Assembly (NCBI RefSeq): GCF_004138325.1
Contig: NZ_SBLB01000001.1
Coordinates: 1,039,855-1,063,854 of the forward strand
Direction of reading: 5' to 3'
Length of the DNA stretch: 24,000 nucleotides
Source of the DNA: Spirosoma sordidisoli
GTDB lineage: Bacteria; Bacteroidota; Bacteroidia; Cytophagales; Spirosomataceae
A model generated the notes under the pieces. The model was not told where the DNA came from. It made no database searches and saw only the letters and a list, made by a program, of their open reading frames with translations. Below are positions 5,909 through 11,076 of this stretch, in pieces; the stretch's first letter is position 1; each line of letters starts with the position of its first letter. The translations under genes and the position numbers were made by a program.

Positions 5909-6970
5909 ATGAAACTTCTCATCACCGGCGGGGCCGGTTTCGTTGGCTCCTCGATCGCCATCTCGCTAAAAAAGAACTACCCCAACTACCAGATTTTTGC
6001 CCTCGACAACCTCAAACGACGCGGCTCCGAGCTGAGTCTGGCGCGGTTGAAAGCGGCTGGTATCGAGTTTTTACACGGCGACATTCGCAACAAAGAGGAC
6101 TTCGACGCCCTGCCTGCTGTTGATGCGGTCATTGAAGCATCGGCCGAGCCGAGTGTACTGGCCGGCCTCGACGGTACACCCGATTACCTCATCAATACCA
6201 ACCTGTTCGGTACGGTCAATTGCCTCAACTACGCGCTCAAGCATAAAGCCAGTTTCATTTTTCTGTCAACAAGCCGCGTATACCCGATCAAAACGATCGA
6301 AACCTTAAACTTTGCCGAAGCCGAAACCCGCTTCGTGCTGACCGACGATCAGCCGGTTCCGGGCGTTTCGTCGAAAGGGATCGCCGAGAATTTCCCGCTC
6401 GACGGGGCGCGCTCGCTCTACGGAACAACCAAGCTAGCTTCGGAACTGCTCATTCAGGAGTACAACGAGTTTTACGGGCTGAAAACCGTTATTAACCGCT
6501 GTGGCGTCATTACCGGTCCGTGGCAGATGGGCAAGGTCGATCAGGGCGTCATGGTGCTCTGGATTGCCAAACATTACTTCGAACAGCAGCTGGCGTATAT
6601 AGGGTACGGTGGCACCGGCAAACAAACCCGCGACATGCTCCATATCGCCGATCTCTACCGACTGGTGGACTGGGAGCTGCACAACCTCGACGCCGTCAAC
6701 GGCGAAATACTGAACGCCGGCGGCAGCAACGAAAGCTCGGCTTCCCTGCAGGAGCTGACAGCGATTTGTCAGGAAGTAACGGGCAAAACCATTCCCATCA
6801 ACGCCGTAACCGAAAACCGGGCCGCCGACATCCGGCTTTACATCACCGACAACACCAAAGTAACGAACCTGACCGGCTGGAAGCCCGAATTAGGTATCCG
6901 CGAGATTGTCACCGACATCCACGACTGGTTAGATAGTAACAAGGATGCACTGGAGCCGATATTGAAGTAA
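5909..6970 (+). CDS. NAD-dependent epimerase/dehydratase, extended SDR (CDP-paratose 2-epimerase-like)
   Basis: MKLLITGGAGFVGS is a Rossmann start, and STSRVY ... YGTTK supplies the catalytic Ser/Tyr/Lys pattern. The tracked ORF start at 5840 lies inside the kup terminator hairpin, so the ATG at 5909 is preferred. Confidence 0.85.
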   Translation: MKLLITGGAGFVGSSIAISLKKNYPNYQIFALDNLKRRGSELSLARLKAAGIEFLHGDIRNKEDFDALPAVDAVIEASAEPSVLAGLDGTPDYLINTNLFGTVNCLNYALKHKASFIFLSTSRVYPIKTIETLNFAEAETRFVLTDDQPVPGVSSKGIAENFPLDGARSLYGTTKLASELLIQEYNEFYGLKTVINRCGVITGPWQMGKVDQGVMVLWIAKHYFEQQLAYIGYGGTGKQTRDMLHIADLYRLVDWELHNLDAVNGEILNAGGSNESSASLQELTAICQEVTGKTIPINAVTENRAADIRLYITDNTKVTNLTGWKPELGIREIVTDIHDWLDSNKDALEPILK

Positions 6971-7005
6971 TACGTATATTTTTCAACACCTTATTCTCTT
7001 TTCGT

Positions 7006-7035
7006 AAAAATGACCTAGCAAATCGGGTCATTTTT
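7006..7035 (+). terminator. Bidirectional terminator-like hairpin after the epimerase gene
   Basis: AAAAATGACC (7006-7015) is the reverse complement of GGTCATTTTT (7026-7035), with a 10-nt loop and an A-tract/T-tract arrangement. Confidence 0.6.
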
Positions 7036-7155
7036 CATTTATACACATGTGTGTCAATAGCTTATCCCCCTTATTAATGAATTATATAATTATAAAGCCG
7101 TATAATGTATACATAAATTGGCTATATTGACAGACTACTTTTAGCAGATTGTAAA

Positions 7156-7584
7156 ATGACAGTTGAGTCTCTTTGGAGTCAGGTTTCTGAAAGTAAGCTA
7201 CAAAAATTACTAATGTTGAAGCTTGTAGCAAAAAATGGTCAAAAAGACTTGAAGCCCAGTCGTTACATTGTTTTTCTTGACACACCCATGAAGGATGATG
7301 GAACTGACAATGATGAAGTAGCTGGTGATGGCATCTACACTTCAGTCGAGACAAAGGCAGTTAGTGCCGAGGAGCCAACCTTTCAGTACCTATACGCTAG
7401 TAAGGAGCTTCAATCAAAAGCAAGATACAGTTGGCCAAAACTGACCATAAAGTGTTCCGATTTCTGCCTTGTATTTAACGGACAGAAATGCTGTGGTCAA
7501 ACTTGTTCAAAAGGCTCCATTTTTGGTGACCACGCCTACGTCTGTATTGGCGGCTGCGGTTGCAGTTCTGAATTTTCCTGGTAG
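7156..7584 (+). CDS. Hypothetical 142-aa protein with 8-Cys C-terminal module
   Basis: An uninterrupted 142-codon ORF in AT-rich DNA, where stop codons should be frequent. It contains DDGTDNDEVAGDGIYT, which resembles a Ca-binding-type loop I recall from secreted beta-sandwich domains. The last 43 residues carry C-x3-C-x7-CC-x3-C-x12-C-x3-C-x-C. There is no signal peptide and no upstream in-frame start (a stop lies at 7114-7116). Confidence 0.5.
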   Translation: MTVESLWSQVSESKLQKLLMLKLVAKNGQKDLKPSRYIVFLDTPMKDDGTDNDEVAGDGIYTSVETKAVSAEEPTFQYLYASKELQSKARYSWPKLTIKCSDFCLVFNGQKCCGQTCSKGSIFGDHAYVCIGGCGCSSEFSW

Positions 7585-7592
7585 AAATTATA

Positions 7593-7639
7593 ATACCATT
7601 GATGTCAATGCTTAATGCTAGCATTGACATCAATGGTAT
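7593..7639 (+). terminator. 20-bp perfect hairpin (terminator/attenuator, or tandem operators)
   Basis: ATACCATTGATGTCAATGCT (7593-7612) is the reverse complement of AGCATTGACATCAATGGTAT (7620-7639), with a 7-nt loop, followed by TTTG. Each arm contains its own CATTGA-NN-TCAATG palindrome. Confidence 0.6.
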
Positions 7640-7657
7640 TTGTAAAATACTGCGTTC

Positions 7658-8521
7658 ATGGATACCTTAATACAATTGCTCAGTGTATGTAGGTTAGCTC
7701 TAATTACACTATTTTTGCATTTTTCATCAACAGCTATTAGTGGAATAGTTATCTCTTTGCTAACAAGAGACAATATAGGGTCTGTATATTTAGAGTTATT
7801 AGCTAGAACATTTGTGGAGGTATTTTTTGCAGTAATTATCTTGTTCTTATATAACAAAAAATATACTAATAATATATATCAACAAATAAGTATAGTAAAT
7901 ATTAACAAATGTATTAACGTATCAGCAATAGCTACTGGCTTTTTCTTGTTTAATATATTTGTTATGTGGGTTTTATGCATCCAAAAATCCATATCAATCA
8001 ACCAAGAAATGAATGTTATAGATTTTTTCATATTTATGGTTCGAAGCATAGTTTTAGGTTTAAGAGGCTCCTTACTGGAAGAAATAATTTACAGGGGTTT
8101 TCTACAAAAAAAACTTATGAGTTATTCTTATAGGCTTAATTCTATTATTGTAAGTTCGTTAGTATTTAGTACAAGTCATCTAATCGGCATACAATCCTTT
8201 ACTGAAGGGCTTTGGACATTTGTCGACGTCTTTCTATTTTCTGTAGTTGTTGGCACCATATTCATCAAATATAATAGTTTCGTATATAGTTTTGCTTTTC
8301 ACTGGATATGGAATTTATTTATCTCCATGCACTGGGTATATGGAGATTGTAATTTACCAAAAAAAGACTATTTGTTTAGAACATACATATACTGTGATAA
8401 TTATTTATCTAATTTTGAATTCCTTAAACAAGCACCTATTACATACATACTCACCTCCTTTGCCTTCCTTTTTATATTAAATAAAAACCTAAGAGCATGT
8501 TTAAAAATTGAGAAAGTTTGA
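7658..8521 (+). CDS. CPBP family intramembrane glutamic endopeptidase (CAAX protease / Abi, PF02517-like)
   Basis: All three CPBP motifs are intact and in order: EExxxR (LLEEIIYRGF), FxxxH (VFSTSHL) and HxxxN (FHWIWNL). The protein has multiple hydrophobic helices. The gene has very low GC. Confidence 0.8.
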   Translation: MDTLIQLLSVCRLALITLFLHFSSTAISGIVISLLTRDNIGSVYLELLARTFVEVFFAVIILFLYNKKYTNNIYQQISIVNINKCINVSAIATGFFLFNIFVMWVLCIQKSISINQEMNVIDFFIFMVRSIVLGLRGSLLEEIIYRGFLQKKLMSYSYRLNSIIVSSLVFSTSHLIGIQSFTEGLWTFVDVFLFSVVVGTIFIKYNSFVYSFAFHWIWNLFISMHWVYGDCNLPKKDYLFRTYIYCDNYLSNFEFLKQAPITYILTSFAFLFILNKNLRACLKIEKV

Positions 8522-8559
8522 TAATCGTGTCAATTTTGTGGTCGACAAACTACAGAGCC

Positions 8560-8637
8560 ATGACCAAAGGGTGGAAGCCACTGACCGACTCTCAATGGGC
8601 CGTAATCGCTCCGGCGACAGCAAAACGGCAAAGCTAA
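8560..8637 (+). pseudogene. 25-codon remnant resembling the N-terminus of an IS5-type (DUF4096-like) transposase
   Basis: The region translates to MTKGWKPLTDSQWAVIAPATAKRQS then a stop. L(T/S)DxQWxxIxP is the usual start of DUF4096-type transposases. The downstream sequence does not continue the family in any frame. Confidence 0.35.
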
Positions 8638-8713
8638 ACAGCTCAAGCGCATCAAACCGGGCTTTTTTAATCCACCAGGCGGAGGCCCTATCCATGTACC
8701 TGGCTTCGAGTGG

Positions 8714-9526
8714 ATGGGGCTATTACTGGCGGGCTTGAAGAGCCACCCTATGGTTGCCTTCTTTCGCTGGTATACCACCTGGGTTGAGTACGCGCAAGAC
8801 CGCTTAAGAGTACGGTCGACCTTGTTAAGCCAAGCGGTCAGCGCCTTTGGCGGGCAACTCTGGCCTGTCTTCGACCAGGTTTATGCCGGTAAACGCTGGC
8901 TGGGGGAGCTACTCACCCAACGGGTGGGCTCTGTCCTACGCTGGCCTACACGGTATCAGTTGGTCGATGACAAGGGTCGGCGAGCGGCCTGGCAGATCGC
9001 CCGGCGCCGGACCGCCCAAGTGCGTCGCCGGGTGTGGGATACCCATCACCAGCAGTGGCGGACAGGAGCGGCCCTGGCGCTGGCCGTGAATCATCCGGAT
9101 TATCCTGATGAAGCGCTGTGGCTGGTTGTCTGCCGGCTGGGTAAAGGCAGGAAGCCCTGGTATCTGCTGACCAATTAGGCCTGTGATCAGGCGGATGTGC
9201 TGTGGTCGGTTGTGCTGGCCTACGCGCGTCGGTGGCAGATTAAGGCCTGCTGGCGCTTTTCCAAGAGTGAGTTGGCTCTTCAGTCACCCCGGCTATGGTT
9301 CTGGGCTAACCGGCTCAAGCTGATGATGATGGTAGCGTTGGTGTATGCCTTTTTACTGTCCTTGCTGATAACCAACCAACACTCTTACCGCCTGGTTTTG
9401 ATGCGAAGTTGGTGCCATCGAACCGGAAAGCGGTGCCAGTCTGCACTGACACCGCTTTATCGGCCACGAGCCGCCTTGGCTGCTCTGCTCACTACCTACC
9501 AAGTCATCACTCAAACTTCGGGATGA
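8714..9526 (+). pseudogene. IS4-family DDE transposase pseudogene (5'-truncated, in-frame stop, catalytic E lost)
   Basis: ORFs 8714-9178 and 9197-9526 share one frame and are separated only by a TAG at 9176-9178, within ...PWYLLTN*ACDQADVLWSVVLAYARRWQIK.... The IS4 signature Y-x2-R-x3-E-x6-K reads YARRWQIKACWRFSK, so the catalytic Glu is Lys (AAG at 9242-9244). The DRGFAG block reads DQVYAG. The region that should hold the first catalytic Asp is absent. Confidence 0.75.
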
Positions 9527-9542
9527 CTCATGTAACAATCAA

Positions 9543-10409
9543 TTACCTCCTGTCCTCGACGCTGTTGATCCAGTCTGGCAGTCCTGTTTCTGCAAGCCAG
9601 CTGTAGCTCTCCTGAAAAAACAACGCGATATGGGCGGTATCGGCGGCCTCTGAAATAGGCAACAGCGCCCCCTGCCAGTCCGGCCCGACGCGCCACTGGC
9701 CTGCCGAAAGCGCCGGTGCGGCCCCGAACCCGACGGCTTGCCCACGCTGGTAGCCCGACAGGTAAAAATAAGGTTCGCTGCACACCGAATCGGCGATGGC
9801 GTAGCCGGCCCAGATGGCTGCTTTTTCGCGTCCGTCGGGGTCGGTTTGGGCGTAGTACACACCCGTGTCGAAGTGGTGCGGCCAAATCCGAATGTCGCTC
9901 TCCCGACCGCTCCATTCGTTCAGGGTCTTTAACGCTGCGTTGGCGGTTGTTCGCCAATGCGCCCAGGTCAGCAACTCAGCGGGGCGTTTGTAAACGGCCT
10001 GTGCGGCAACGGGCGGCTGATCCAGCTGGTAGTTGAGCGGGTTACCGCCAGCCATACCCCAGGCCTGCATCTGACTCGTCCACCAAATCAGGGCGTCGGC
10101 CGGGGTTCGGTTTTCGGGCGAGAAGGTTGCCGAGATATGTTCCCGTTCGTCGATGAACTGCAACGTAAACGTGTTCATGTCAATGACCAGCCGTAGCTGG
10201 TGCCCGTTGTGGGTAAAGGGCCGGCCTTCGAGCCGGTGCCGGTCGCTGTTCCAGCACAGGTTCGTCTGGCTGTCGTCGGGTCGGGACGGCAACCACTGCA
10301 TAGCCGTCAGCGCCAGGAGCTGGGCGAGGCTGTGCAGGGTCTGGTCCGCCTGGTTTACCGCATTCATTGGTACGACCATTGGGGCAGTGGCGCGCTGGCC
10401 GTTACACAT
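9543..10409 (-). CDS. Hypothetical protein, DUF5996-like (remote, from memory)
   Basis: 288-aa ORF whose ATG overlaps the stop of the upstream Crp/Fnr gene (ATGTGTAA, 8-nt overlap). The blocks TLHSLAQLL, LRLVIDMNTFTLQFID, IRIWPHHFDTG, EPYFYLSGY and ALLPISEA...FFQESY parallel the order of conserved blocks I recall for DUF5996. Confidence 0.55.
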   Translation of the reverse strand: MCNGQRATAPMVVPMNAVNQADQTLHSLAQLLALTAMQWLPSRPDDSQTNLCWNSDRHRLEGRPFTHNGHQLRLVIDMNTFTLQFIDEREHISATFSPENRTPADALIWWTSQMQAWGMAGGNPLNYQLDQPPVAAQAVYKRPAELLTWAHWRTTANAALKTLNEWSGRESDIRIWPHHFDTGVYYAQTDPDGREKAAIWAGYAIADSVCSEPYFYLSGYQRGQAVGFGAAPALSAGQWRVGPDWQGALLPISEAADTAHIALFFQESYSWLAETGLPDWINSVEDRR

Positions 10410-11076
10410 TGAGCAAAGCCGGGTCGGTAATCCGGATCTGGCTACGGTCGTATTCCAGCATGCCCGCCAGCCGAAACTCGTTGAAAAGCTCGGTAACGGT
10501 TTGCCGGTTGCTGCAAATCATCCGGGATATATCCTTGTGCGAAAGGTAATTGGTAAGCACATTTGGCTGGCCCGGCTTGGCGTCTTTGTCGGCCCACTCT
10601 TTCAGAAACAACCGCAGCCGCGTCCGCACATCCTTGAACATCAGGTTGGCGTACCGATTCTGAAGCTGCCGAAAACGCAGGCCAATCAGTTTGGTATACC
10701 GGATGCCGAGCGCCGGGTTCTGCCGCATGATCTGTTCAAAATCAGACACCAGAAAGCTACAGAACGTAACATAATCGGACAGCACTACGGCGTACTGATT
10801 GCTGGCGTGGGGGGTCAGGGTAAACTGACCGAACAGATCGCCCGGCCGCAGAATCTCAATCAGTTGTTCGTCTCCGTCATTGTCCAGCTCAACCAGCTTC
10901 AGGATGCCCACTTTAATGGTGAAAATACGTTTTTCTTCCTGCGGAAGGGTAATCACGTCGCCTTTACGACCGGTACGAAAGTGGCTGAGGTAGGTCAGTT
11001 CATTCAGGTGATTACGTGACAATTCATCGAAAAGCTGATGATTGTGTAAGTACCAGTATTTTGCTTCAAAAGTCAT
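10402..11076 (-). CDS. Crp/Fnr family transcriptional regulator
   Basis: An N-terminal cNMP-binding beta-barrel (ILRPGDLFG) is followed by a C-terminal HTH (LSHKDISRMICSNRQTVTELFNEF). Confidence 0.85.
   Translation of the reverse strand: MTFEAKYWYLHNHQLFDELSRNHLNELTYLSHFRTGRKGDVITLPQEEKRIFTIKVGILKLVELDNDGDEQLIEILRPGDLFGQFTLTPHASNQYAVVLSDYVTFCSFLVSDFEQIMRQNPALGIRYTKLIGLRFRQLQNRYANLMFKDVRTRLRLFLKEWADKDAKPGQPNVLTNYLSHKDISRMICSNRQTVTELFNEFRLAGMLEYDRSQIRITDPALLNV

What the first reader, a model, noticed from the sequence alone, without database searches (positions are those of the whole stretch)
7051..8534. Abrupt AT-rich two-gene insert: Cys-rich protein plus CPBP intramembrane protease, framed by an 8-nt direct repeat and abutting IS debris
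Base composition collapses just after the epimerase terminator and recovers within about 10 nt of the CPBP stop codon. My hand counts of 60-nt lines inside the CPBP gene give 9/60 G+C (7861-7920), 18/60 (7921-7980) and 22/60 (8041-8100). The flanks give 30/60 (6541-6600) and 46/60 (9661-9720). The first gene is intermediate (20/60, 33/60 and 25/60 for the lines starting 7201, 7321 and 7441), so the two genes may not share one origin. GTGTCAAT occurs at 7051-7058 and again at 8527-8534, framing the two genes as a target-site duplication would. The insert encodes no recombinase, but a dead IS4-like transposase lies directly to the right. From established knowledge, CPBP/Abi (PF02517) proteins recur as self-immunity or maturation partners of secreted peptide toxins, for example in class II bacteriocin loci. 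Here the partner is a leaderless 142-aa 8-Cys protein rather than a double-glycine-leader peptide, and no exporter or modification enzyme is present. If the pair is functional it therefore does not fit a described bacteriocin architecture. My inference is a horizontally acquired toxin/immunity or protease/substrate module of an undescribed type.
Basis: partly seen in the sequence, partly recalled or inferred. Interest (0 to 1): 0.75.

Follow-up and report, generated by a model that had tools for sequence, protein, structure and literature searches.

The report
Decayed lipoprotein–CPBP protease gene cassette
The AT-rich patch is a foreign, partly decayed copy of a two-gene cassette found across Bacteroidota and apparently undescribed: a small disulfide-rich secreted lipoprotein followed by its own CPBP membrane protease, possibly a toxin and its immunity protein.

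Summary
The composition island is real. GC is 0.25-0.45 over 7000-8530 against 0.52-0.68 in the flanks. GC3 is 0.40 and 0.26 for the two genes against 0.64-0.76 for host genes.

The 8-nt "target-site duplication" is not significant (chance 0.10-0.24). No empty site could be found.

The two genes are a conserved pair. All 12 distinct homologues of the 142-aa protein that I examined, down to about 20% identity, have a PF02517 (CPBP) gene directly downstream on the same strand. The CPBPs diverge in parallel with their partners. A strong hairpin follows the first gene in all 9 loci where the spacer is at least 50 nt, including the window (7592-7640).

The partner is not naturally leaderless. Homologues are 160-200 aa with a signal peptide, mostly of the lipoprotein type. 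They carry a beta-sandwich domain with a DDGxxNDxxAGDGIYTS motif and a variable C-terminal domain with 4, 6 or 8 cysteines. The window copy has lost its signal peptide, while its CPBP keeps EExxxR, FxxxH and HxxxN.

Best reading: a horizontally acquired, half-decayed effector/CPBP cassette in Spirosoma sordidisoli. I favour toxin plus immunity over substrate plus processing protease. The partner family matches no Pfam model, PDB entry or paper I could find.

The parts
7006..7035 (+). Terminator-like hairpin of the upstream epimerase gene (AAAAATGACC / GGTCATTTTT). This is host intergenic DNA, not part of the cassette.
   Evidence: Perfect 10-nt inverted repeat with a 10-nt loop (I16). All eight relatives inspected also have a hairpin right after the epimerase stop.
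7036..7155 (+). Very AT-rich stretch where the signal-peptide coding region of the lipoprotein gene should be. It has stop codons in all three frames. The left junction of the foreign DNA lies somewhere in here. It contains the left GTGTCAAT (7051-7058).
   Evidence: Three-frame translations. Homologues have about 40 more N-terminal residues. GC is 0.15-0.35 in 40-nt windows.
7156..7584 (+). 5'-truncated gene for a small disulfide-rich protein (142 aa, 8 Cys; WP_129600237.1). It has an N-terminal beta-sandwich domain with a DDGxxNDxxAGDGIYTS (choice-of-anchor X) motif at residues 44-63, a disordered linker at about 73-92, and a Cys-rich C-terminal domain at 95-142. It lacks the signal peptide of its family.
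   Evidence: NF041940 scores 31 bits against a cutoff of 25. Full-length homologues are 180-192 aa. AF2 model: overall pLDDT 72.8, N-domain 81-94. GC3 is 0.40.
7592..7640 (+). Intercistronic hairpin with perfect 21-bp arms and a 7-nt loop. Probably a partial terminator or transcript stabiliser that separates expression of the two genes.
   Evidence: I1. MFE is -32.9 kcal/mol against -8.7 +/- 2.4 for shuffles, z = -10.1. An equivalent hairpin with unrelated sequence occurs in all 9 loci with a spacer of at least 50 nt.
7658..8521 (+). CPBP (Rce1-like, PF02517) glutamic intramembrane protease, 287 aa, with motifs EExxxR (E140-R145), FxxxH (F170, H174) and HxxxN (H215, N219) intact. It also has a clade-specific two-Cys segment, GDC...YLFRTYIYCDN (about residues 229-248).
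   Evidence: Pfam 56.6 bits. Alignment A3 shows invariant F170, H174, H215 and N219. Homologues align from residue 51-80 onward, so the 287-aa reading (GenBank RYC71417.1) is right and the 161-aa RefSeq call is too short.
8527..8534 (+). Right copy of GTGTCAAT. It lies 5 nt after the CPBP stop codon, at the point where GC recovers. It is probably coincidental.
8560..9526 (+). Degenerate insertion-sequence remains. A 25-codon ORF (8560-8634) is followed by an IS701/IS4-like transposase reading frame (8606-9523) broken by an in-frame stop at 9176-9178.
   Evidence: NCBIfam IS701 hit at E 5.8e-5, matching model positions 307-383 of 412. Frame analysis. No terminal inverted repeats found. tblastn match to an Emticicia contig end.

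Best explanation
The segment from about 7040-7155 to about 8535 is a horizontally acquired, partly decayed copy of a two-gene cassette that recurs across Bacteroidota and that I could not find described.

In its intact form, gene 1 encodes a 160-200 aa exported protein. It usually has a lipoprotein signal with acidic residues after the lipid-modified Cys, so I infer surface exposure. It has a conserved beta-sandwich N-domain and a variable C-terminal mini-domain locked by 2-4 disulfides. A stem-loop follows gene 1. Gene 2 encodes a catalytically competent CPBP intramembrane protease that co-diverges with gene 1.

I read gene 1 as a secreted, bacteriocin-like effector. I read the CPBP as its cognate self-protection protein, acting proteolytically at the inner membrane as proposed for the Abi/CPBP immunity proteins of class IIb bacteriocins.

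In this Spirosoma sordidisoli copy the effector gene has lost its signal peptide. Its 8-Cys domain therefore cannot reach the oxidising periplasm and is most likely non-functional. The CPBP gene is intact and may persist as an orphan immunity gene.

Shown: foreign composition, the conserved pairing, co-divergence, the truncation, intact catalytic motifs and the hairpin. Inferred: toxicity, immunity, surface exposure and the role of the hairpin. My confidence is about 0.85 for "decayed foreign copy of a conserved cassette" and about 0.4 for the toxin/immunity mechanism.
For: **Foreign origin**
- GC and GC3 collapse, and the tetranucleotide outlier.
- The same cassette is much more AT-rich than its flanks in L086 (0.38 against 0.60) and L100 (0.24-0.37 against 0.50).
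- IS debris abuts it.

**Conserved pair**
- In 12 of 12 distinct homologues a PF02517 gene lies directly downstream on the same strand.
- The CPBPs fall into the same clades as their partners. Window against L084 gives E 1e-30, and L084's partner P0003 is 56% identical to the window protein.
- Catalytic motifs are conserved in all 11 CPBPs aligned.

**Exported, disulfide-rich partner**
- A lipobox Cys followed by acidic residues occurs in about 20 of 29 family members. Another 5 have SPI-type signals.
- The last 60 residues hold an even number of Cys (4, 6 or 8) in 29 of 29.

**Truncation in the window**
- Alignments A1 and A2 start at the conserved Met of "MTVE". Stop codons lie upstream in all frames.

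**Pointers to toxin/immunity rather than maturation**
- The C-terminal Cys domain is polymorphic behind a conserved N-domain.
- L094 has two tandem CPBP paralogues, 45% identical. L088 has three further CPBP genes.
- In two loci the partner gene has decayed while the CPBP is intact: the window, and L097 with an in-frame stop after the signal peptide.
- A stem-loop follows gene 1 in 9 of 9 loci with a spacer of at least 50 nt, with z from -3.9 to -10.1.
- Regulators sit upstream: LytTR response regulators in L090, two-component systems in L091, and divergently transcribed HTH_3-type regulators in L088 and L098 plus a divergent regulator-like ORF (not profile-scanned) in L094.
- Precedent: the Abi-family immunity proteins SkkI, PlnI and PlnL (PMC8538875, citing Kjos et al. 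2010).
Against: - No toxicity, export or cleavage has been shown for any member.
- The Cys-rich domain resembles no known toxin. Foldseek against PDB found nothing at E <= 0.001. There is no PDB sequence hit and no Pfam hit.
- The best sub-threshold NCBIfam matches of the CPBPs are to sorting proteases (MrtS, MrtJ, myxosortase), not to immunity proteins.
- CPBP immunity has so far been described only in Gram-positive bacteria (my knowledge, and PMC8538875).
- The window ORF is still open for 142 codons and keeps every family-invariant residue, so a cytoplasmic role cannot be excluded.
- Acquisition could not be confirmed with an empty site.
- The cassette was not found on plasmids or phages.
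Confidence: 0.45

Rival explanations
1. This is a dedicated protease/substrate (sorting or maturation) pair. The CPBP cleaves the adjacent lipoprotein on the periplasmic face of the inner membrane, near its C-terminal Cys-rich end or in the disordered linker. Cleavage would release or re-anchor the Cys-rich domain. This is analogous to the two-gene MrtJ/JDVT-CTERM neighbourhood and to myxosortase/MYXO-CTERM. The window copy is a decayed instance.
For: [quoted passage not shown]
- The best NCBIfam matches of the CPBPs are MrtS, MrtJ and Mrt_core.
- Invariant cysteines lie close to the C-terminus. The last one is 5-10 residues from the end.
- The core-clade CPBPs carry an extra conserved two-Cys segment that could contact a Cys-rich substrate.
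- The AF2 model has a disordered linker at 73-92 that would be accessible to a protease.
Against: - The defining tripartite tag (motif, transmembrane helix, basic cluster) is absent. The maximum 19-residue Kyte-Doolittle hydropathy is 0.71, and the C-terminus is an amphipathic beta-strand.
- The NCBIfam scores are far below cutoffs (35.9 against 130; 29.5 against 75).
- The even Cys count in 29 of 29 members argues that all cysteines are in disulfides rather than one being lipidated.
- Duplicated and arrayed CPBPs, and CPBPs that outlive their partner gene, are not expected for a dedicated maturation enzyme.
Confidence: 0.3
2. A mobile element carrying two cargo genes inserted here by transposition and duplicated GTGTCAAT as its target site.
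For: - The 8-mer occurs at both edges of the AT-rich block.
- It occurs 3 times in the window against 0.62 expected, and only 3 of 100 shuffles reach 3.
- IS debris is adjacent.
Against: - Chance sharing of some 8-mer between the two boundary zones has probability 0.10-0.24.
- There are 17 such repeat families in 1.9 kb.
- There are no terminal inverted repeats and no recombinase.
- Gene 1 is truncated about 100 nt inside the left repeat. An intact element bounded by the repeats would therefore carry about 100 nt of non-coding AT-rich filler and a headless gene.
- The cassette in other genomes sits in unrelated contexts without this 8-mer architecture. DNA similarity to L084 is confined to 114 nt inside gene 1.
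Confidence: 0.07
3. The pairing has a non-proteolytic or regulatory role. The CPBP would act as a signalling or acyl-transfer partner of the lipoprotein. Precedents are Abx1 with CovS in group B Streptococcus and LnsB in staphylococcal lipoprotein N-acylation. The cassette would then be a cell-envelope module rather than a conflict system.
For: - CPBP proteins with such roles exist (PMC3578759 and PMC7387801, titles and abstracts).
- Regulators often lie upstream of the cassette.
- The partner is usually a lipoprotein.
Against: - All three catalytic motifs are strictly kept in 11 of 11 CPBPs.
- The strongly polymorphic C-terminal domain, the patchy distribution and the foreign composition fit a conflict or accessory module better than a housekeeping envelope function.
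- Five family members have SPI-type rather than lipoprotein signals, yet at least three of them (P0033, P0042 and P0048) still pair with a CPBP.
Confidence: 0.1

Closest known systems
Abi/CPBP immunity proteins of class IIb and related bacteriocin loci in Firmicutes (PlnI, PlnL, SkkI; Kjos et al. 2010, as cited in PMC8538875)
   Same: - A PF02517 membrane protein is encoded immediately downstream of, and co-transcribed with, the gene for a secreted ribosomal product.
- The catalytic motifs are conserved.
- CPBP genes can be duplicated or orphaned.
- Regulators of LytTR or two-component type can sit nearby.
   Different: - The partner is a 160-200 aa Sec/lipoprotein-exported two-domain protein with 2-4 disulfides, not a 30-60 aa double-glycine-leader peptide.
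- There is no C39 ABC exporter.
- The hosts are Gram-negative Bacteroidota.
- Neither toxicity nor immunity has been shown.
MrtJ/JDVT-CTERM two-gene neighbourhood and myxosortase MrtX/MYXO-CTERM (Guo, Haft and Wall 2025, PMC11980579)
   Same: - A CPBP protease is paired with a signal-peptide-bearing target that has invariant Cys near its C-terminus.
- For MrtJ the system is just two adjacent genes, found sporadically.
- These are the best (sub-threshold) NCBIfam matches of the CPBPs here.
   Different: - The target lacks the transmembrane helix and basic cluster of the tripartite tag.
- It has 4-8 cysteines in even numbers.
- The CPBP scores are far below the family cutoffs.
- The phylum is different: Bacteroidota rather than Proteobacteria or Myxococcota.
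Polymorphic toxin systems (Zhang et al. 2012, PMC3482391)
   Same: - A conserved N-terminal trafficking or presentation domain is followed by a variable C-terminal domain.
- The cognate protective gene lies immediately downstream.
- Extra or orphan protective genes occur.
- Distribution is patchy and suggests horizontal transfer.
   Different: - The proteins are far smaller than typical polymorphic toxins.
- The C-terminal domains are disulfide-rich mini-domains with no recognisable enzymatic toxin fold.
[quoted passage not shown]
Choice-of-anchor X domain proteins (NCBIfam NF041940)
   Same: The window protein passes the model's cutoff (31 against 25 bits) through the DDGxxNDxxAGDGIYTS motif. 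The same motif recurs in large surface proteins found.
   Different: The model covers only about 20 residues of the protein. It says nothing about the Cys-rich domain or the CPBP partnership. Most other cassette members score below the cutoff.

Membership tests
CPBP / Rce1-like glutamic intramembrane proteases (PF02517) | Significant match to the Pfam model above the gathering score | tested here: met
   56.6 bits against a cutoff of 22.4, E 3.2e-15, covering model positions 5-93 of 93.
CPBP / Rce1-like glutamic intramembrane proteases (PF02517) | Catalytic motifs EExxxR, FxxxH and HxxxN/D in hydrophobic segments | tested here: met
   LLEEIIYR (E140, E141, R145), FSTSH (F170, H174) and HWIWN (H215, N219). 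F, H, H and N are invariant in 11 of 11 partner CPBPs. Hydrophobic segments were found by Kyte-Doolittle analysis.
CPBP / Rce1-like glutamic intramembrane proteases (PF02517) | Proteolytic activity | not testable with these tools
   Needs biochemistry.
Myxosortase-type sorting systems (MrtX/MrtC/MrtP, MrtJ, MrtS) | Protease reaches the NCBIfam equivalog cutoff | tested here: not met
   MrtS 35.9 against 130, MrtJ 29.5 against 75, Mrt_core 21.9 against 100, MrtP 14.3 against 250. The picture is similar for partner CPBPs in L084, L081 and L090.
Myxosortase-type sorting systems (MrtX/MrtC/MrtP, MrtJ, MrtS) | Target has a tripartite C-terminal tag: a short Cys motif, a transmembrane helix and a basic cytoplasmic cluster (PMC11980579) | tested here: not met
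   There is no hydrophobic stretch: maximum KD19 is 0.71. The C-termini are amphipathic strands ending in F or W, with no Arg/Lys cluster.
Myxosortase-type sorting systems (MrtX/MrtC/MrtP, MrtJ, MrtS) | Target has an N-terminal signal peptide and is encoded next to the protease (MrtJ type) | tested here: met
   Met for the family: about 25 of 29 members have a signal peptide, and adjacency holds in 12 of 12. Not met for the window copy, which has lost the signal peptide.
Class II bacteriocin / Abi-immunity loci | Small precursor peptide with a double-glycine or Sec leader, plus a dedicated exporter | tested here: not met
   The partner is 160-200 aa with a lipoprotein or SPI signal. No C39-type exporter is present in the window or in the loci examined. 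ABC ATPase genes follow the CPBP only in L084 and L088.
Class II bacteriocin / Abi-immunity loci | Antibacterial activity of the product and protection by the CPBP | not testable with these tools
   Needs expression and killing/protection assays.
Transposon or IS-mediated insertion with target-site duplication | Direct repeat at both ends beyond chance, terminal inverted repeats and a transposase | tested here: not met
   Chance probability of the repeat is 0.10-0.24. There are no terminal inverted repeats. The only transposase remains are a broken IS701-like frame outside the repeats.
Transposon or IS-mediated insertion with target-site duplication | An empty site in a relative | tested here: inconclusive
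   80 epimerase loci were retrieved. kup-epimerase synteny is kept, but similarity stops at the epimerase stop codon and nothing downstream is shared. No second S. sordidisoli genome was available.
Choice-of-anchor X domain (NF041940) | Score at or above the curated cutoff | tested here: met
   31.0 bits against 25, residues 44-63.

The most novel reading that the evidence does not exclude
The small proteins with a choice-of-anchor-X motif and a variable disulfide-rich C-terminal domain are a new class of Bacteroidota antibacterial effectors, anchored on the cell surface or released. The cognate CPBP protease neutralises them at the inner membrane. This would be the first CPBP-based immunity system in Gram-negative bacteria.

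A further speculation concerns the C-terminal strand. It has alternating hydrophobic residues and ends in F or W, as in ...CEISIEFEW. It may mimic an outer-membrane-protein beta-signal and target the BAM machinery of competitors.
Probability: 0.3. Interest if true: 0.8.

Novelty: new variant of a known kind. Interest (0 to 1): 0.6.

Why it matters
Bacterial CPBP proteases are numerous, yet almost none has a known natural partner. The 2025 myxosortase paper calls prokaryotic CPBP family members "largely unexplored" (PMC11980579).

This cassette supplies a strict one-to-one, co-diverging pairing of a CPBP with a small exported protein across Flavobacterium, Saprospiraceae, Spirosoma and other, mostly unnamed, genomes and metagenome contigs. 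CPBP function becomes directly testable with two genes.

If the pair is toxin and immunity, it adds a new family of protein antibiotics and a new immunity mechanism for Gram-negative bacteria. If it is substrate and protease, it adds a sorting or maturation signal that lacks the usual tripartite tag.

For genome annotation, three points follow:
- A "choice-of-anchor X" hypothetical protein followed by a CPBP gene should be treated as one unit.
- The RefSeq 161-aa CPBP call here is too short.
- The window copy of the partner gene is probably a remnant.

Tried and rejected
- **Word-indexed searches.** Searches with either protein found only the source genome's own entries. The exhaustive HMMER search was needed to find the family.
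- **Empty-site search.** A scan for epimerase loci gave 80 loci but no shared downstream DNA, and S. sordidisoli itself was not among them.
- **Metagenome scan.** The scan with alignment A1 added only 3 loci, two of which were already known.
- **Structure of the CPBP.** The single-sequence model was useless, with pLDDT 42.7.
- **Family and sequence databases.** Pfam scan of the 29 family members: nothing meaningful. PDB profile search: nothing. PADLOC and PHROGs: nothing. Plasmid and phage tblastn: nothing. Rfam and tRNA scans of the window: nothing.
- **Promoters.** No Bacteroidota-type TAnnTTTG box lies upstream of either gene, and sigma-70-like hits are at the shuffle expectation.
- **IS ends.** No inverted repeats were found, and Pfam gave nothing on the IS fragments.
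- **Literature.** Six full-text searches found no description of this pair.
- **Degraded signal peptide in 7036-7155.** I looked for a remnant and rejected it. Only the roughly 7 codons just upstream of the ATG show faint similarity to homologues (LLLADCK against LNDLKK).
Full report
**1. The observation**

The window comes from Spirosoma sordidisoli. Both proteins match that species' entries at 100% identity.

GC in 200-nt windows runs at 0.49-0.59 through kup and the epimerase gene. It drops to 0.25-0.45 between 7000 and 8500 and is back at 0.55 or more by 8540.

The drop is at silent positions. GC3 is 0.40 for 7156-7584 and 0.26 for 7658-8521, against 0.64-0.76 for six host genes. Tetranucleotide distance from the window mean peaks here, at z = 4-5, and nowhere else. 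The composition island is therefore real and is not caused by amino-acid content.

GTGTCAAT does occur at 7051, 8527 and 4881. However, it is one of 17 direct-repeat families of at least 8 nt in this 1.9-kb stretch. The chance that the two boundary zones share some 8-mer is 0.10 under a Markov model. It is 0.24 for equally spaced zone pairs taken elsewhere in the window. I found no terminal inverted repeats. I do not accept the repeat as a target-site duplication.

**2. What the two genes are**

The 287-aa ORF is a CPBP/Rce1-like protease: PF02517 at 56.6 bits against a cutoff of 22.4. EExxxR, FxxxH and HxxxN are all intact.

RefSeq now calls only its last 161 residues (WP_394343299.1), whereas GenBank has 287 (RYC71417.1). 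Homologues align from residue 51-80 onward, so the long form is correct.

The 142-aa ORF has no Pfam hit. It passes NCBIfam "choice-of-anchor X" at 31 against 25 bits through a 20-residue motif at residues 44-63.

**3. The partner belongs to a signal-peptide-bearing family and is truncated here**

Word-indexed searching found nothing but the protein itself. The exhaustive HMMER search found full-length relatives: P0003 (182 aa, 56% identity), P0004 and P0006 (184 aa), P0008, P0020 and P0021.

All of these have about 40 extra N-terminal residues forming a lipoprotein-type signal (…SC or …AC). The window ORF begins exactly at the conserved Met of "MTVE(S/A)(I/V/L)W". Upstream of 7156 there are stop codons in all three frames and no alternative start. 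The window gene is therefore 5'-truncated.

A profile search widened the family to 29 aligned members. Their architecture is:
- **Signal peptide.** About 20 of 29 have a lipobox Cys followed by acidic residues, and 5 have an SPI-type signal.
- **N-domain.** It carries DDGxxNDxxAGDGIYTSVE.
- **Linker.**
- **C-terminal domain.** It is variable apart from three invariant cysteines, and it ends in an alternating strand that usually finishes in F or W.

Every member has an even number of cysteines (4, 6 or 8) in its last 60 residues. This points to a fully disulfide-bonded extracytoplasmic mini-domain.

From published work on Bacteroidota lipoprotein export signals, which I recall and did not test here, acidic residues after the lipidated Cys suggest surface exposure.

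AF2 with the 29-sequence alignment gives:
- a confident beta-sandwich for residues 1-70 (pLDDT 81-94);
- a disordered linker at 73-92;
- a weaker beta-rich C-domain.

There is no structural or sequence match in PDB and no Pfam match for any member.

**4. The pairing is conserved**

I examined the neighbourhoods of 12 distinct homologues, ranging from 56% down to about 20% identity and including members with quite different Cys-domain types. In 12 of 12 a PF02517 gene follows directly on the same strand.

| Locus | Homologue |
|---|---|
| L081/L096 | P0021 |
| L084 | P0003 |
| L086/L095 | P0020 |
| L088 | P0004 |
| L089 | P0008 |
| L090 | P0033 |
| L091 | P0048 |
| L092 | P0038 |
| L094 | P0006-like |
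| L097 | P0052 |
| L098 | P0042 |
| L100 | P0040 |

The CPBPs group as their partners do. The window CPBP is closest to those of L084 (E 1e-30), L088 and L094. L086, L089 and L081 form a second group.

The first group shares an extra two-Cys segment, G[DS]C…Y[LI][FV][RK]T[YF]x[YDE]C.

In all 9 loci where the spacer is at least 50 nt, a strong hairpin of unrelated sequence follows the first gene's stop codon, with z from -3.9 to -10.1. The window's is 7592-7640, with 21-bp perfect arms and z = -10.1.

The pair is thus an old, co-evolving unit. This refutes the suggestion that the two genes arrived separately. The window's GC3 gap of 0.15 is still the largest seen; the other loci differ by at most 0.11.

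**5. Mobility and decay**

The cassette is also much more AT-rich than its surroundings in L086 and L100. It sits in unrelated contexts in each genome. This supports repeated horizontal transfer.

No copy was found on plasmids or phages.

In the window it abuts broken IS remains. An IS701-like frame at 8606-9523 carries an in-frame stop, and a short ORF starts at 8560.

An empty site could not be tested. Among 80 epimerase loci from related genera, synteny and DNA similarity end at the epimerase stop codon.

A second decayed copy exists in L097, from a Saprospiraceae MAG. There an in-frame stop separates the lipoprotein signal from the rest of the gene while the CPBP is intact. A sequencing error is possible in that case.

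**6. Mechanism**

Shown:
- an exported disulfide-rich protein and a catalytically competent CPBP are inherited together;
- they are probably expressed at different levels because of the intervening hairpin.

Inferred: what the CPBP does to, or about, the protein.

*I favour effector plus self-protection (about 0.4).* Five features fit conflict systems and the Abi immunity precedent (PMC8538875; PMC3482391):
- The C-domain is polymorphic behind a conserved N-domain.
- CPBPs are duplicated in L094 (two paralogues, 45% identical) and arrayed in L088.
- In two loci the CPBP has outlived its partner gene.
- Regulators of the LytTR, two-component or XRE type lie upstream.
- Distribution is patchy and the composition is foreign.

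*The main rival (about 0.3) is a dedicated substrate/protease pair.* The model here is MrtJ/JDVT-CTERM, described as a conserved two-gene neighbourhood (PMC11980579). The CPBPs' best NCBIfam hits, though far below threshold, are MrtS and MrtJ.

Against membership in that family:
- The tripartite tag is absent. There is no transmembrane helix (maximum KD19 0.71) and no basic cluster.
- The even Cys counts argue against a free, lipidated Cys.

*In the window itself,* the loss of the signal peptide means the 8-Cys domain cannot reach the periplasm. The first gene is therefore most likely a remnant, and only the CPBP is plausibly functional.

**7. Comparison with known systems, and novelty**

CPBP genes next to a secreted partner are a known kind of arrangement. 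Examples are Firmicute bacteriocin immunity, MrtJ/JDVT-CTERM and myxosortase.

What differs here is the partner. It is a two-domain, disulfide-rich, mostly lipoprotein family with no Pfam model, no solved structure and no paper in six full-text searches. The phylum differs as well.

I rate it a new variant of a known kind. The window's own copy is a decayed example, so the interest lies in the family it led to.

**8. Verdict**

| Claim | Outcome |
|---|---|
| Composition island | Confirmed |
| Target-site duplication | Not supported |
| Separate origins of the two genes | Not supported |
| "Leaderless" partner | An artefact of truncation |
| "Undescribed toxin/immunity or protease/substrate module" | Supported at the family level, mechanism unresolved |

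Interest: 0.6.

Noticed in passing
window 7658-8521: RefSeq (WP_394343299.1) annotates only the C-terminal 161 aa of the CPBP gene, whereas GenBank (RYC71417.1) has 287 aa. Homologues align from residue 51-80 onward, so the RefSeq start is too far downstream and removes several transmembrane segments.
   Followed up: yes
L097 3860-4462: In a Saprospiraceae MAG the homologous lipoprotein gene has an in-frame stop between its signal peptide (MKNFINLFSVLAVCGLFLLTSC...) and the rest of the protein, while the downstream CPBP is intact. This is a second decayed partner with a retained CPBP, or a sequencing error.
   Followed up: partly
L094 3520-5362; L088 1-1575: L094 has two tandem CPBP paralogues (45% identical) after a single lipoprotein gene. 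L088 has three further, unrelated CPBP genes plus a HigB/HTH toxin-antitoxin pair just upstream of its cassette. The layout resembles an immunity array.
   Followed up: partly
family alignment A2 (29 proteins): The C-termini end in an alternating hydrophobic/polar strand that finishes in F or W, for example CEISIEFEW, CSFDFEWTW and, in the window, CSSEFSW. This resembles the C-terminal beta-signal of outer-membrane proteins. The resemblance comes from memory and was not tested.
   Followed up: no
L084 7512-9220; L088 4794-5294; L098 2656-3060; L100 1977-2354: Extra genes follow the CPBP in some loci. L084 has an ABC ATPase gene followed by a 358-aa ORF with no Pfam hit, and L088 has an ABC ATPase gene. 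L098 has a small unannotated ORF of 134 aa with a signal-like N-terminus, and L100 has one of 125 aa. They may be optional parts of the cassette.
   Followed up: no
window 8560-8634: A short ORF, MTKGWKPLTDSQWAVIAPATAKRQS, starts 39 nt after the CPBP stop codon. From memory, the LTDxQWxxIxP pattern recalls the N-termini of IS5-type transposases. Pfam gave no hit. It may be a second IS fragment distinct from the IS701-like remains at 8606-9523.
   Followed up: partly
window 9543-10409 (- strand): A 288-aa ORF at host-like GC (0.62) has no Pfam, NCBIfam or PHROG match. It overlaps the start of the Crp/cNMP-like regulator ORF (10402-11076, - strand) by 8 nt. No homologue was found in any of the 80 related epimerase loci.
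   Followed up: partly
window 7156-8521 versus 12 other loci: GC3 of the two cassette genes differs by 0.15 in the window (0.41 against 0.26), but by at most 0.11 in the other loci. DNA similarity to the closest cassette (L084) is confined to 114 nt in the Cys-domain region (7451-7564, 75%). The window copy may be a recombinant.
   Followed up: partly
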